This document shows, piece after piece, positions 35,224-60,560 of a stretch of 64,000 nt of DNA. The notes beneath the pieces were generated by a model that saw only the letters and a program-made list of their open reading frames with translations, did not search any database and was not told the DNA's origin. Both the position numbers and the translations under genes were made by a program. Positions within the stretch are counted from its first letter, which is position 1. Every line of letters starts with the position of its first letter. Source of the stretch: Escherichia phage MN04; the sequence record MT129654.1; one strand, 5' to 3'.

Positions 35224-35340
35224 AACCATGGTATACCGCTCGATGGGAAACCGTCGAGCCAGAGGAACCGGTTTACAACGATTCCGAAATAGAGTATAAT
35301 GAACCTTCAAACAATGATTTAATCGATATGGAGTTTGGAT

Positions 35341-35514
35341 ATGAGTACCAAAATTGAAATTGGCCGTCATAAAGGCCGTCTGATTGAACATTCGCTTTAC
35401 GAGTTATCGGATTCAGGTTCTTTACCTGACCTAGAGTCTGATTTGATTAAAGCTGCAGCCGATTATATCCATTGGCTTGAAGCGCAACTCCGCTTTGCTG
35501 ATAAGGCGTTCTGA
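35341..35514 (+). CDS. small protein (57 aa)
   Basis: ATG 35341; stop overlaps next ATG; under the ORF-track cutoff. Confidence 0.4.
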   Translation: MSTKIEIGRHKGRLIEHSLYELSDSGSLPDLESDLIKAAADYIHWLEAQLRFADKAF

Positions 35515-35699
35515 TGAAAACTGTATTAGTCTATACTGAAAAGTTAAATGGCGACAAGGTATGGAAACTTCTTATCAAAGGAAGTCCTAATGACCAGTTT
35601 ATGGCTACCTGCGTAGGATTATACACTCGTCCTACCAAAAAGATGATTCGTCAATTTAAACGGTTACACCGTATGTTTTACGGTACATTTGAAAAATAA
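35514..35699 (+). CDS. hypothetical protein (61 aa)
   Basis: Coupled ORF. Confidence 0.45.
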   Translation: MKTVLVYTEKLNGDKVWKLLIKGSPNDQFMATCVGLYTRPTKKMIRQFKRLHRMFYGTFEK

Positions 35700-57137: not shown

Positions 57138-58561
57138 AAACTATTTTGGCTCAACTGCTAGGCAATAGTGATTATTTCACTAAGGTCTGGCCTTATATGA
57201 ATGATTCTTATTTTGACCAGGGTCCGGCAAAGACCCTTTTCAAAGAAATCAAAAAACATGTCAATGAATATAATGCGGTGCCTTCTAAAAATGCTTTGAG
57301 TATTGCATTAGATAACAGCACCCTTTCAGAAGTTGAACACCAAGGAGCTAAAGAGCTTTTAAGTTCACTGAACGCTGGCCCTGAAGACCAAGAATGGTTG
57401 GTTAAAGAGACAGAGAAATATGTTCAGAAGGCAGCGATGTATAATGCCACTTCAAAAATTATTGAAATTCAAACTAATGCCGACCTTCCGGTTGAGCAAC
57501 AAAATAGAAAACTCCCAGGTATTGGTGCTATTCCAGATATCATGCGTGATGCATTATCGATTTGTTTCGATTCTGAATTAGGCCATGACTGGATGGATGA
57601 CTATGAAGAACGTTTTAAAAGTTATTCCGATAAAGCACGTAAGGTTCCATTCCGTCTTAATATTCTGAATAAGATTACTAAGGGTGGCGCTGAGTTTGGT
57701 ACTGAAAACGTATTGTTGGCAGGAACAAACGTAGGTAAGTCTCTGGGTCTGTGTTCATTGGCTGCTGATTACCTTCAATCCGGTTACGATGTTCTTTATA
57801 TCTCCATGGAGATGGCAGAGGAAGTATGCGCTAAGCGTATCGATGCTAACCTTCTAGATGTATCACTGGATGATATTGATGATGGTCACGTCTCATGGCC
57901 TGAATATAAAGCTAAGATGGATAAGTGGCGTTCAACTGCTACTTTAGGTCGTTTAAAGATTAAACAGTATCCTACTGGTGGTGCTAATGCCGATACATTC
58001 CGTGCATTATTAAACGAATACAAGCTCAAACAAAACTTTGTCCCACAGGTCGTTATCGTCGACTACTTGGCTATCTGTGCTTCATCCCGTACGAAAGTTT
58101 TCTCTGAAAACAGTTATGGATTGATTAAGATGGTTGCCGAAGAACTACGTGGACTTGCAGTAGAGAAGAAATTATTGTTGTGGACTGCAGCCCAGACTAC
58201 TCGTGGTGCGAACGTTGCCGCCGAAATCGATATGGCTGATATCGCTGAATCCTTTGGTATTGCACATACTGCAGACTTCATGTTAGGTGTGGTCGAGACA
58301 GAAGAGTTTGCTCAGATGGGTATGCAGATGGTTAAGCAGCTTAAATCTCGTTATGGTGATAAGAGCTACTACAACAAATTTAAGATTGGTGTTAAGAAAG
58401 GAAACCAGCGTTGGTATGAAGTTGAAGACGATTCTAACCCAGGCCCAGTGAACACCGTTCGTGAGGCTACAGGTGAAATGAACCGCCAAGCAGAGGTCAA
58501 TCGCCAGTCGCGTGTTAATAGAAGCGATTTAGACGATTTAGCAGCATCTATCAAATTTTAA
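57122..58561 (+). CDS. 41: replicative DNA helicase gp41 (DnaB-like, 479 aa)
   Basis: MVEVVETILAQLLGNSDYFTKVWPYM...; Walker A GTNVGKS, ISMEM, VIVDYL match remembered T4 gp41. Confidence 0.95.
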   Translation: MVEVVETILAQLLGNSDYFTKVWPYMNDSYFDQGPAKTLFKEIKKHVNEYNAVPSKNALSIALDNSTLSEVEHQGAKELLSSLNAGPEDQEWLVKETEKYVQKAAMYNATSKIIEIQTNADLPVEQQNRKLPGIGAIPDIMRDALSICFDSELGHDWMDDYEERFKSYSDKARKVPFRLNILNKITKGGAEFGTENVLLAGTNVGKSLGLCSLAADYLQSGYDVLYISMEMAEEVCAKRIDANLLDVSLDDIDDGHVSWPEYKAKMDKWRSTATLGRLKIKQYPTGGANADTFRALLNEYKLKQNFVPQVVIVDYLAICASSRTKVFSENSYGLIKMVAEELRGLAVEKKLLLWTAAQTTRGANVAAEIDMADIAESFGIAHTADFMLGVVETEEFAQMGMQMVKQLKSRYGDKSYYNKFKIGVKKGNQRWYEVEDDSNPGPVNTVREATGEMNRQAEVNRQSRVNRSDLDDLAASIKF

Positions 58562-58584
58562 GGAGCTTCGGCTCCTTTTTTTTG
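58561..58584 (+). terminator. rho-independent terminator
   Basis: Hairpin ggagc-ttcg-gctcc followed by a T8 run. Confidence 0.75.
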
Positions 58585-58592
58585 TTTTAAGG

Positions 58593-58635
58593 GTTTACTT
58601 CTCCTGTAGGCATGATACTATAGACCTATCAACTT
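58593..58635 (+). promoter_or_regulatory. T4-type early promoter cassette
   Basis: GTTTAC 58593-58598 and core gatactatagacctatcaa. Confidence 0.6.
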
Positions 58636-58645
58636 GGAGAACAAA

Positions 58646-58963
58646 ATGAAAACCATCGACTGTAAAGCGGAATATAAAGTGTATTACCATGGAAGTTGTA
58701 GTGTTGCTAATATTGGTAATATGCTTTGTCCTCCTGAGGAAACAGGAGTTCTGTCTGAAACTGGTCGTAAGAAAAACCTAAATCGTGTGTTCTTTACTGA
58801 AGATATCGGTTTGGCTAAGATTTATGCTGGACGAGCTGCTCGTTCGGTGGGAGGAGAACCTCGTCTTTATCGTGTAATTGCTCCGGTAGATGTGGTTTGT
58901 TTAAATGATACCAAAGGCGCTACGGTTTATCACGCTGAATGGGCCTTCTGTGAGGAAATCTAA
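58646..58963 (+). CDS. hypothetical Cys-containing protein (105 aa)
   Basis: ATG 58646 with SD ggag. Confidence 0.5.
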   Translation: MKTIDCKAEYKVYYHGSCSVANIGNMLCPPEETGVLSETGRKKNLNRVFFTEDIGLAKIYAGRAARSVGGEPRLYRVIAPVDVVCLNDTKGATVYHAEWAFCEEI

Positions 58964-59167
58964 ATGTATAAATTAGAGAACGTAGTGTTTATTGGTTGGT
59001 TTGAAAATGGTAATATGTTTACCAAAGAAACTGCGCTGGATGTTAGTGACCAAAAAATGATTGAATGGGTTACAGTGCAGTATGCAGAAGTGAATAATGC
59101 ACTGGTGAAAGCCTTTGTTAATGACAATAAAGTTTTTGAATATGATGCCCGCATTGAGGAAATCTAA
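58964..59167 (+). CDS. dmd: Dmd antitoxin (discriminator of mRNA degradation, 67 aa)
   Basis: NVVFIGWFENGNMFTKE...VQYAEVNNALVKAFVNDNKV matches remembered T4 Dmd (61.5). Confidence 0.8.
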   Translation: MYKLENVVFIGWFENGNMFTKETALDVSDQKMIEWVTVQYAEVNNALVKAFVNDNKVFEYDARIEEI

Positions 59168-59308
59168 ATGGAAGAGGTTGAATGTGTAGTATGTGGTTGT
59201 TCGGTATGTGAAGACCAGGCAGTATTTGATGCTTGGGACAACGCAACTTGTTTAGACTGCGATAGCGAATACGAAGAAATTGCTCATAAACATGAAGACG
59301 AGGAATAA
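59168..59308 (+). CDS. small zinc-ribbon protein (46 aa)
   Basis: CVVCGCSVC...CLDC; TAAATG coupling at both ends; under the ORF-track cutoff. Confidence 0.4.
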   Translation: MEEVECVVCGCSVCEDQAVFDAWDNATCLDCDSEYEEIAHKHEDEE

Positions 59309-59548
59309 ATGAATATTGTATTAATGAAGCCAACCCCTAGCTCTTTTTGGAATAAATCTTTTGGTAAGCATAATATGTTTATCCAACGCACCGTAAGCAG
59401 CTGGGAACTAGTTCTTTCAGTAGGTCATAATGATTATGAACAGGAATATGTAGAGTTCTTCGAATTTCCTGTGAAGCCTACTAAGCGTCAGATTCGTCAG
59501 ACCAAACGTAAATTCCGTAAAATTTATTTGGAAGATTCGTTAAAATAA
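59309..59548 (+). CDS. small protein with basic C-terminal tail PTKRQIRQTKRKFRK (79 aa)
   Basis: ORF; paralogous tail to the ORF at 60339. Confidence 0.5.
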   Translation: MNIVLMKPTPSSFWNKSFGKHNMFIQRTVSSWELVLSVGHNDYEQEYVEFFEFPVKPTKRQIRQTKRKFRKIYLEDSLK

Positions 59549-59549
59549 A

Positions 59550-59595
59550 GTTTACATCGGTCTATGGTAGTGATACTATAGACCTATCCACTAAT
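59550..59595 (+). promoter_or_regulatory. T4-type early promoter cassette
   Basis: GTTTAC 59550-59555; inverted repeat ggtctatgg/ctatagacc; core gatactatagacctatcca. Confidence 0.6.
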
Positions 59596-59607
59596 GAGGA
59601 GTTAAAA

Positions 59608-59901
59608 ATGAAAAAGTTATTAATCGCAGCAATCCTTACAGTAGCATCATGTGGCACGGCTCCGGTAACTGCCGGATTGGATAAAGACCTTTGTGAATGG
59701 TCTATGACTGCAGACCAAGAGTCAGTTGAACATCAGATTTATGCCGATATCATGAACATCACTAAACGTGACCGTCCTGACATGGTTAAAGAAGTGTCCG
59801 ACCAATTAGCTTCAACCGGTGTTATGCAGTACAACTATGTTTTGTATTGTGACGCTAATTTCGATAACAAAAACATTGTTAAAGAGGTTACAGGTGAGTA
59901 A
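59608..59901 (+). CDS. sp: Spackle, periplasmic superinfection-exclusion protein (97 aa)
   Basis: Signal peptide plus DKDLCEWSMTADQ...VMQYNYVLYCD matches remembered T4 Sp (61.3); length identical. Confidence 0.8.
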   Translation: MKKLLIAAILTVASCGTAPVTAGLDKDLCEWSMTADQESVEHQIYADIMNITKRDRPDMVKEVSDQLASTGVMQYNYVLYCDANFDNKNIVKEVTGE

Positions 59902-59902
59902 A

Positions 59903-60337
59903 ATGATTAACAGAACTTTGGTTATTAAAAAGCTTCGTTGTAAAAATCCAAACGCACAAGCATACAGGATGTTTTGGAGCGACGACCATCAGTACCTAGG
60001 TTATTTTATTGTTGATAGCGACGATAGAATTGTATTCGCTCATAAACTTCTTAACAGAGAATTAAACCATTGGCAAGAACTTATTGCTGTTAAGTCTAAA
60101 TTATTTTCGCTCAATGCAATGCACCAATTGGTTTATTTTTTCGCTGACGGGTTTCCGGACAAGGTTGAATTTGAAGGATTCGAATTTAAAGATATCCACC
60201 CGGGCAACGAATTGAACGACCGCGTTAATATGGATATCCCTAGCAAGTATATCAAAAACAGTCTGTTGAAAATTCTGGAAGCTCCGGTTTATTCAATTGA
60301 CGACCAGATTTTTAATGCCTTTATGAACCGAGGTTGA
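59903..60337 (+). CDS. hypothetical protein (144 aa)
   Basis: ATG 59903 after SD ggtgag. Confidence 0.45.
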   Translation: MINRTLVIKKLRCKNPNAQAYRMFWSDDHQYLGYFIVDSDDRIVFAHKLLNRELNHWQELIAVKSKLFSLNAMHQLVYFFADGFPDKVEFEGFEFKDIHPGNELNDRVNMDIPSKYIKNSLLKILEAPVYSIDDQIFNAFMNRG

Positions 60338-60338
60338 T

Positions 60339-60560
60339 ATGTTTGTCTTAACTCAATTCTCTAAAGCAGTGTATAGTTACTCTTGTCAGTGGGAAGTCTT
60401 TATTGATTCTCCTTCGCCCAAGTACGGCGTTTTTGGACGAGTAACTACTCAGGCTTACGTTGCACGACCTACTAAAAGACAGATTCGTAAGCTTAAAAAG
60501 GCACACCGTCAACTGATTAAAAGAAGGGAACAATATGAGTGCAATGTGTACGGGCTCTAA
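60339..60560 (+). CDS. small protein with basic tail PTKRQIRKLKKAHRQ (73 aa)
   Basis: ORF; paralogous tail to the ORF at 59309. Confidence 0.5.
   Translation: MFVLTQFSKAVYSYSCQWEVFIDSPSPKYGVFGRVTTQAYVARPTKRQIRKLKKAHRQLIKRREQYECNVYGL

What the first reader, a model, noticed from the sequence alone, without database searches (positions are those of the whole stretch)
59309..60560. Two small paralogs with a shared basic PTKRQIR tail flanking the spackle gene
ORFs 59309-59548 and 60339-60560 both end with ...(K/R)PTKRQIR(Q/K)xK(R/K)... followed by a Lys/Arg-rich tail. The DNA encoding the shared motif differs by synonymous changes (aag cgt cag versus aaa aga cag), pointing to protein-level conservation. 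Such tails suggest nucleic-acid or ribosome binding; their position near dmd and sp places them in a host-interaction neighbourhood.
Basis: seen in the sequence. Interest (0 to 1): 0.4.

Follow-up and report, generated by a model that had tools for sequence, protein, structure and literature searches.

The report
Known TifA anti-toxin paralogs in JS98-like phage
The two small genes are real paralogs, but they belong to the already described TifA family of phage RNA-binding proteins that disarm a bacterial suicide RNase, and their shared PTKRQIR motif is that family's experimentally mapped RNA-binding site, so the finding is correct but not new.

Summary
ORFs 59309-59548 (79 aa) and 60339-60560 (73 aa) both carry (K/R)PTKRQIR followed by a Lys/Arg-rich helix, encoded with synonymous differences. 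Each matches Pfam DUF7279 at E~1e-20, and so does T4 TifA (gp61.4).

The window is 99% identical to phage JS98. ORF1 is the dmd-linked tifA ortholog. ORF2 is a second, anciently diverged tifA paralog.

In TifA of T4 and RB69, the Pro-Thr caps a basic C-terminal helix. K55/R56/R59, the K, R and R of PTKRQIR, are required for RNA binding and for neutralising the ToxN RNase (Guegler et al., NAR 2023). That paper cloned both of these exact proteins, as tifA_JS98 and tifA_vB_EcoM_005. Neither neutralised any of six ToxN homologs or TenpN, so their targets are unknown.

New here:
- A third family member lies at 35514-35699, giving three copies in the whole JS98 genome.
- Both copies are under strong purifying selection (dN/dS 0.02-0.12).
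- ORF2 is far more conserved across genera than ORF1.
- T4's pin gene ends in a remnant of the third paralog.

Verdict: real, correctly interpreted, already known. Interest is low to moderate.

The parts
59309..59548 (+). tifA1: the dmd-linked TifA ortholog (JS98 gp61.4), 79 aa. The PTKRQIR motif is encoded at 59477-59497.
   Evidence: Pfam DUF7279 at 8.6e-20 and phrog_2375 at 2e-35. It is annotated 61.4 in JS98 and is 46.6% identical to T4 TifA. It matches tifA_JS98 in Table S2 of PMC10853763. The AF2 model has pLDDT 78: three strands plus helix 59-78.
60339..60560 (+). tifA2: second TifA-family paralog (JS98 orf29), 73 aa. The PTKRQIR motif is encoded at 60468-60488. The last 26 nt overlap the next gene.
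   Evidence: Pfam DUF7279 at 5.7e-20 and phrog_3272 at 1e-25. It is 100% identical to the vB_EcoM_005 protein tested as tifA_vB_EcoM_005. The AF2 model has pLDDT 80: E2-9, E16-24, E34-40, H46-70. A GAGG Shine-Dalgarno sequence and a TGA-N-ATG junction with the upstream ORF are visible in the sequence.
35514..35699 (+). tifA3: third TifA-family paralog (JS98 orf76), 61 aa, with motif RPTKKMIRQFKR (P40 at 35631). It lies directly upstream of gene 49 (endonuclease VII).
   Evidence: phmmer E=0.0023, then the family HMM at 3e-17. Pfam DUF7279 at 1.3e-16. JS98 annotation. Orthologs occur in 339 phage records.
58593..58621 (+). T4-type early promoter (GTTTAC, 17 nt, TACTAT with upstream TG) of the orf34-dmd-zn46-tifA1 operon. 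It follows the gene 41 terminator at 58560-58577.
   Evidence: Terminator scan. Alignment with the sp promoter. Promoter function is inferred from the consensus only.
59550..59579 (+). Second early-type promoter, between tifA1 and sp, heading sp-orf30-tifA2-orf28-61.1-61. Its -10 and start region (59571-59592) is a 22-nt, 95% direct repeat of 58613-58634.
   Evidence: Promoter scan: TTTACA, 17 nt, TACTAT with TG. Direct repeat D5. Alignment.
58964..59167 (+). dmd, the inhibitor of the RnlA/LsoA toxins, in the same operon as tifA1.
   Evidence: Pfam Dmd at 2.3e-20 and phrog_2102. JS98 annotation.
59608..59901 (+). sp (spackle), the gene the two paralogs bracket.
   Evidence: Pfam T4_Spackle at 2.5e-42.

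Best explanation
ORF1 and ORF2 are two of three TifA-family (Pfam DUF7279) genes in this JS98-like T-even phage.

Each encodes a protein of about 60-80 aa built from a variable three-stranded beta-sheet and a constant C-terminal alpha-helix. The helix is capped by Pro-Thr and lined with Lys/Arg; PTKRQIR is its first turn and a half.

By homology with TifA of T4 and RB69, the helix binds RNA non-specifically. The variable sheet and loop face recognises a host RNase toxin released during infection. The toxin is then trapped on bulk RNA, notably 16S rRNA, and cannot cleave phage transcripts, so abortive infection is blocked.

Shown: family membership, motif conservation, predicted fold, purifying selection and early-operon placement. 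Shown by others, for the T4 and RB69 proteins only: RNA binding through this motif and ToxN neutralisation. Inferred: that these paralogs bind RNA and each neutralises a different toxin. Both were tested against six ToxN homologs and TenpN and neutralised none, so their partners are not known.
For: Both ORFs, and T4 TifA itself, match PF23945 at about 1e-20.

The motif maps onto P53, T54, K55, R56 and R59 of TifA-RB69. The P53A/T54A and K55A/R56A/R59A mutants lose RNA co-purification, ToxN rescue and ToxN co-immunoprecipitation (PMC10853763).

The AF2 models of ORF2 (pLDDT 80) and ORF1 (pLDDT 78) show three strands plus a helix starting right after PT. This is the architecture published for TifA. 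Foldseek against viral models returns only other TifA homologs: EcS1, PM2 and VR25.

The three paralogs are 53% identical in the motif and helix but only 11-18% identical in the sheet and loop part. This fits a constant RNA anchor plus a variable specificity surface, as the authors proposed for the family.

dN/dS is 0.02-0.12 for both genes. ORF1 sits in the dmd operon and ORF2 in the next early operon of the 'anti-TA island'. tifA3 sits beside the pin/49.x locus, where gp49.2 is amplified under OLD immunity.
Against: The only functional test of these exact proteins was negative. tifA_JS98 (ORF1) and tifA_vB_EcoM_005 (ORF2) neutralised none of six ToxN homologs or TenpN, although the vB_EcoM_005 protein was shown to be well expressed.

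RNA binding has not been measured for them. TifA-RB69 also binds ssDNA and dsDNA in vitro with similar affinity. No toxin partner can be proposed from sequence. ORF2 is 97% identical between JS98-like phages and VR7 while ORF1 is 50%, so ORF2 does not look like a gene in a fast arms race.
Confidence: 0.6

Rival explanations
1. The proteins are general RNA- or ribosome-binding modulators with no toxin partner. They would coat or bind 16S rRNA or mRNA to alter translation or RNA stability during infection. ToxN trapping would then be a speciality of the T2/T4/T6/RB69 clade only.
For: The only family-wide conserved feature is the RNA-binding helix. Six of ten tested homologs, including both of these proteins, neutralised no toxin. 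TifA-RB69 binds RNA without ToxN, and 16S rRNA is the enriched species. ORF2 is nearly invariant across two genera, as expected for a conserved host target such as the ribosome.
Confidence: 0.2
2. The copies are redundant dosage copies of one inhibitor. They would be the fixed outcome of the kind of tifA amplification seen in evolved T4, all acting on the same target.
For: T4 escapes plasmid-borne toxIN by tandem amplification of dmd-tifA through short flanking homologies. Here the tifA1 cassette is flanked by 22-nt direct repeats.
Against: The paralogs share only 11-18% identity outside the helix. At the DNA level only a 24-nt patch is similar. They have different lengths and termini, evolve at very different rates, and each lineage has its own orthologs in other genera. 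This is ancient divergence, not dosage.
Confidence: 0.08
3. The proteins are small DNA-binding regulators of phage or host transcription.
For: TifA-RB69 binds short ssDNA and dsDNA with affinity similar to RNA in vitro. The proteins are basic (pI about 10).
Against: The nucleic acid that co-purifies with TifA from cells is RNase-sensitive and DNase-resistant. No HTH, RHH or other DNA-binding family was hit.
Confidence: 0.07
4. One or both ORFs are decaying duplicates or chance ORFs.
For: They are short and ORF2 overlaps the next gene by 26 nt. QL01's annotators did not call ORF2.
Against: dN/dS is 0.02-0.12 at dS of 0.2-0.5. The reading frames are intact in every Dhakavirus examined and in VR7. 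Both have Shine-Dalgarno sequences and coupled starts and strong HMM matches.
Confidence: 0.02

Closest known systems
TifA (gp61.4) of phages T4, T2, T6 and RB69: ToxN inhibitory factor A (Srikant et al., eLife 2022; Guegler et al., NAR 2023)
   Same: Same Pfam family (DUF7279). Same predicted fold of three strands plus a PT-capped basic helix. Identical PTKRQIR motif. ORF1 has the same position downstream of dmd in an early operon.
   Different: ORF1 is 47% and ORF2 37% identical to T4 TifA. ORF2 lies in a different operon, after sp and orf30, lacks the roughly 14-aa beta1-beta2 insertion, and has its own C-terminal C-[ND]-[VI]-[YI]-G-L tail. Neither protein neutralised ToxN or TenpN in the published screen.
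Dmd (gp61.5), the T4 inhibitor of the RnlA/LsoA RNase toxins
   Same: A small early protein in the same operon (58964-59167) that neutralises a host RNase toxin of a toxin-antitoxin defence system.
   Different: Unrelated family (Pfam Dmd). [quoted passage not shown]
AdfA (gp61.2), the anti-DarT factor
   Same: Third member of the 'anti-TA island' between genes 41 and 61.
   Different: Unrelated protein that targets a DNA ADP-ribosyltransferase toxin. In this window its slot holds a different 144-aa ORF that shares only the last 15 or so residues with AdfA.
HIV-1 Vif-APOBEC3-RNA 'molecular glue' complexes (the analogy drawn by Guegler et al.)
   Same: A viral antagonist needs RNA to engage and inactivate a host antiviral enzyme.
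   Different: No homology. The analogy is mechanistic only.

Membership tests
TifA family / Pfam DUF7279 (PF23945) | Match to the family HMM above the curated cutoff of 24.5 bits. The founding member, T4 TifA, is in the same model. | tested here: met
   ORF1 scores 70.8 bits and ORF2 71.4 bits. T4 gp61.4 scores 72.7 bits and ORF3 60.6 bits.
TifA family / Pfam DUF7279 (PF23945) | A Pro-Thr helix cap followed by the basic residues equivalent to K55, R56 and R59 of TifA-RB69. | tested here: met
   PTKRQIR is present in ORF1 (57-63) and ORF2 (44-50). T and the second R are invariant and P is 98% conserved in 53 sequences. The mutational importance comes from PMC10853763.
TifA family / Pfam DUF7279 (PF23945) | [quoted passage not shown] | tested here: met
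   AF2 gives ORF2 as E2-9, E16-24, E34-40 and H46-70 (pLDDT 80). It gives ORF1 as E2-6, E32-38, E47-53 and H59-78 (pLDDT 78). These are predictions only; no solved structure of the family exists.
TifA orthologs (gene 61.4 position) | Located downstream of dmd in the same early operon. | tested here: met
   Met for ORF1, with one 46-aa ORF between dmd and it. Not met for ORF2, which follows sp and orf30 behind a second promoter. ORF2-position copies are the only copies in Enterobacter phage MY742 and Klebsiella phage Biddle.
TifA as a functional class (ToxN inhibitor) | Neutralises ToxN toxicity or toxIN defence. | not testable with these tools
   The published experiment was negative. tifA_JS98 (ORF1) and tifA_vB_EcoM_005 (ORF2) neutralised none of six ToxN homologs or TenpN, and expression of the latter was verified. 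They are therefore family members by sequence, not demonstrated ToxN inhibitors.
TifA as a functional class (RNA-binding protein) | Binds RNA through the basic helix. | not testable with these tools
   Shown for TifA-RB69 and TifA-T4 only. It is inferred here from the identical motif and 9-10 K/R residues in the helix.
dsRBD or ribosome hibernation factor (HPF/YfiA)-like RNA-binding folds (considered) | Structural similarity clearly above generic small alpha+beta matches. | tested here: not met

The most novel reading that the evidence does not exclude
The three TifA-family paralogs of JS98-like phages are a diversified panel of RNA-tethered toxin traps. They would share one RNA anchor (the PT-capped basic helix) and carry three different recognition surfaces. 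Each would neutralise a different host RNase or defence nuclease outside the ToxN/TenpN set already tested. The highly conserved ORF2 and ORF3 lineages would then define new anti-defence specificities.
Probability: 0.4. Interest if true: 0.5.

Novelty: already known. Interest (0 to 1): 0.22.

Why it matters
The finding itself re-discovers a characterised family, which is useful mainly as a check that the first-stage reading was sound.

What remains open is practical. Both proteins were negative in the only toxin screen done, yet both are kept under strong purifying selection, and a third copy exists. JS98-like phages therefore carry three orphan TifA-type proteins whose targets are unknown. 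Finding those targets would extend the RNA-dependent 'trap the toxin on rRNA' mechanism beyond ToxN, and would help predict host range of T-even phages used in therapy.

Tried and rejected
1. A single-sequence search of the 5.8-billion-protein set with ORF2 gave only 3 near-identical hits, because of word-index limits. I replaced it with a profile of 13 diverse homologs, which gave 56 hits, and a full HMM scan, which gave 74 clusters.

3. I tested recent duplication or gene conversion between ORF1 and ORF2. The DNA alignment shows only a 24-nt patch at 83% identity, so this is rejected in favour of ancient paralogy.

4. I tested T4 Pin as a further full family member. Only its last 18 aa are related, as a remnant.

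5. I looked for further copies elsewhere in the genome. There are none in the rest of JS98 at E of 1 or less.

6. The literature search for 'DUF7279' returned no papers. Neither TifA paper uses the words paralog, two copies, second copy or second tifA; multiple copies was searched only in the NAR paper.

7. The Arr-like hit of orf34 found no PDB sequence match.

Full report
**Observation.** The ORF listing shows both ORFs exactly as described, 59309-59548 (79 aa) and 60339-60560 (73 aa), on the + strand.
- ORF1 ends FPVKPTKRQIRQTKRKFRKIYLEDSLK. ORF2 ends YVARPTKRQIRKLKKAHRQLIKRREQYECNVYGL.
- The 21 nt that encode PTKRQIR differ at three positions, all synonymous: AAG CGT versus AAA AGA.
- BLASTP aligns only this 20-aa stretch (45% identity, E=6e-5).
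- Each protein independently matches Pfam PF23945 (DUF7279) at 8.6e-20 and 5.7e-20, so the paralogy is not a chance motif match.
- PHROGs places them in different but cross-hitting families, phrog_2375 and phrog_3272.

**Where we are.** The region is 99% identical to Escherichia phage JS98, a Dhakavirus in the Tevenvirinae. The gene order is as follows:
- gene 41 helicase, then a terminator;
- orf34, dmd, a 46-aa CxxC ORF, then ORF1, which JS98 annotates as 61.4;
- sp, orf30, then ORF2 (JS98 orf29, 'hypothetical');
- orf28, 61.1, then the gene 61 primase.

A T4-type early promoter precedes orf34. A second one lies in the 59-nt gap between ORF1 and sp, so the two paralogs are in consecutive early operons.

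[quoted passage not shown] T4 TifA matches DUF7279 at 2.3e-20, so DUF7279 is the TifA family.

Guegler et al. (PMC10853763) reported the following:
- A conserved Pro-Thr (P53, T54) caps that helix.
- TifA-RB69 binds RNA, with KD falling from 2.3 uM to 0.36 uM as RNA length increases.
- The P53A/T54A and K55A/R56A/R59A mutants lose RNA co-purification, ToxN rescue and ToxN co-immunoprecipitation.
- ToxN-TifA forms a large ribonucleoprotein enriched in 16S rRNA.

P53-T54-K55-R56-Q57-I58-R59 is exactly PTKRQIR. The guess of 'nucleic-acid or ribosome binding' was right.

**These very proteins have been tested.** Table S2 of that paper lists tifA_JS98, which is ORF1 apart from OCR noise, and tifA_vB_EcoM_005, which is 100% identical to ORF2.
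- They were treated as homologs from different phages and different phylogenetic clusters.
- Searches of the two papers for paralog, two copies, second copy or second tifA (and, in the NAR paper only, multiple copies) found nothing.
- In a pairwise screen against six ToxN homologs and E. coli TenpN, only the T2, T4, T6 and RB69 proteins neutralised anything.
- The vB_EcoM_005 protein was confirmed to be highly expressed.
- GenBank annotators of VR7 and VR5 had already labelled both copies 'similar to T4 gp61.4'.

On this basis the finding is already known.

**Structure.** I built a 53-sequence alignment from a profile search and ran AF2 on it.
- ORF2 has mean pLDDT 80, with strands 2-9, 16-24 and 34-40 and helix 46-70.
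- ORF1 has mean pLDDT 78, with strands 2-6, 32-38 and 47-53 and helix 59-78. A low-confidence insertion of about 25 aa sits between strands 1 and 2.
- In both models the helix begins right after PT.
- Foldseek against viral models finds only other TifA homologs: EcS1, PM2 and VR25.
- Nothing in the PDB matches by sequence profile or by Foldseek.

**A third copy and the lineages.** A family HMM run over all six-frame ORFs finds a third member at 35514-35699: 61 aa, motif RPTKKMIRQFKR, Pfam 1.3e-16. It lies directly upstream of gene 49. The rest of the JS98 genome has no further copy, so there are three per genome.

| Lineage | Relatives |
|---|---|
| ORF1 | Positional ortholog of T4, RB69 and VR7 tifA |
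| ORF2 | Shares a C-terminal C-[ND]-[VI]-[YI]-G-L tail with the only copy in Enterobacter phage MY742 and Klebsiella phage Biddle, which sits in the same place after sp |
| ORF3 | Found in 339 phage records, many of them Tequatroviruses, next to pin |

T4 itself lacks an intact ORF3. Its pin gene ends in an 18-aa remnant of the ORF3 helix, and a deletion of about 137 nt is visible in the DNA alignment. The whole family is small: 74 clusters at E of 1e-3 or less among 1.84 billion representatives, and all the proteins are short.

**Evolution.**
- Between the three paralogs, the sheet and loop part is 11-18% identical and the motif plus helix is 53% identical. At the DNA level only a 24-nt patch is similar. 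The duplication is ancient.
- Against six Dhakavirus orthologs, dN/dS is 0.02-0.12 for ORF1 and 0.02-0.09 for ORF2, at dS of 0.2-0.5. Both are maintained genes.
- Against VR7, of another genus, ORF2 stays 97% identical, ORF1 drops to 50% and dmd to 73%.
- A 22-nt direct repeat, formed by the -10 and start regions of the two promoters (58613-58634 and 59571-59592), flanks the orf34-dmd-zn46-tifA1 cassette. This is the kind of short flanking homology invoked for dmd-tifA amplification in T4.

**Mechanism and rivals.** The best-supported model is that each paralog uses the constant PT-capped basic helix to bind RNA and its variable sheet and loop face to recognise a host RNase toxin. The toxin is then trapped on abundant RNA, as shown for TifA and ToxN.
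- Firm: family membership, motif, predicted fold, selection and operon context.
- Inference: RNA binding and toxin trapping by these particular proteins. The published ToxN/TenpN screen was negative, so any target lies elsewhere.

The main rival is a toxin-independent RNA or ribosome modulator. It is favoured somewhat by ORF2's extreme conservation and by the many non-neutralising homologs. Redundant dosage copies, DNA-binding regulators and decaying ORFs fit the data poorly.

**Verdict.** The observation and the interpretation are both correct, but the family, the motif's function and even these two exact proteins are already published. The modest additions here are four:
- three paralogs co-reside in one genome;
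- their lineages map to fixed genomic positions;
- ORF1 and ORF2 evolve at very different rates;
- T4 pin carries a remnant of the third copy.

Interest is low to moderate.

Noticed in passing
JS98 has three copies in its whole genome.
   Followed up: yes
window 35335-35699, compared with L011 5860-6383 (T4 pin): T4 pin (161 aa) looks like a deletion fusion. Residues 102-146 match the Pin-like ORF at window 35335-35514, and its last 18 aa (DRMIQQYKRLHQMFYNT) match the C-terminal helix of the third TifA paralog. A gap of about 137 nt removes that gene's beta-sheet and PT cap.
   Followed up: partly
window 58613-58634 and 59571-59592: A 22-nt, 95% direct repeat (TGATACTATAGACCTATC[A/C]ACT) lies in two T4-type early promoters, 958 nt apart. 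It brackets the orf34-dmd-zn46-tifA1 cassette and is a plausible substrate for the segmental amplification described for dmd-tifA in T4.
   Followed up: partly
window 59168-59308 (+): A 46-aa acidic ORF with CxxC...CxxC lies between dmd and tifA1. It is not annotated in the JS98 RefSeq record but is annotated in QL01. It matches phrog_13952 at 5e-30 and has pooled pN/pS of 0.07, so it is likely a real small zinc-ribbon gene.
   Followed up: partly
window 58646-58963 (+): The first gene of the dmd operon (JS98 orf34, RB69 orf040c-like, 105 aa) has a sub-threshold Pfam hit to the rifampin ADP-ribosyltransferase Arr (E=0.026). It is 99-100% identical in protein across six Dhakaviruses despite dS of 0.09-0.25. 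It has no PDB sequence match.
   Followed up: partly
window 59903-60337 (+): The slot held by adfA (61.2, anti-DarT) in T4 and RB69 holds a different 144-aa protein (phrog_8539). It shares only its last 15-27 residues with AdfA-like families: Pfam AdfA E=0.006 and phrog_4122 E=3e-5. VR7 carries both this gene and 61.2.
   Followed up: no
window 58964-59167, compared with L015, L016 and L017: dmd is only 52-62% identical in QL01, IME08 and Ec2-ASingh, while the flanking orf34 and tifA1 are 97-100% identical. This looks like allelic replacement of dmd within an otherwise conserved operon.
   Followed up: no
proteins P0039, P0043, P0045, P0047 (metagenomic): Some family members are 159-164 aa: an N-terminal TifA domain fused to a conserved C-terminal domain of about 90 aa (...GRTPHELWEAIQHGAIVCT.IDK.IAS.RPA...TCYVFWDE...) of unknown function.
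   Followed up: no
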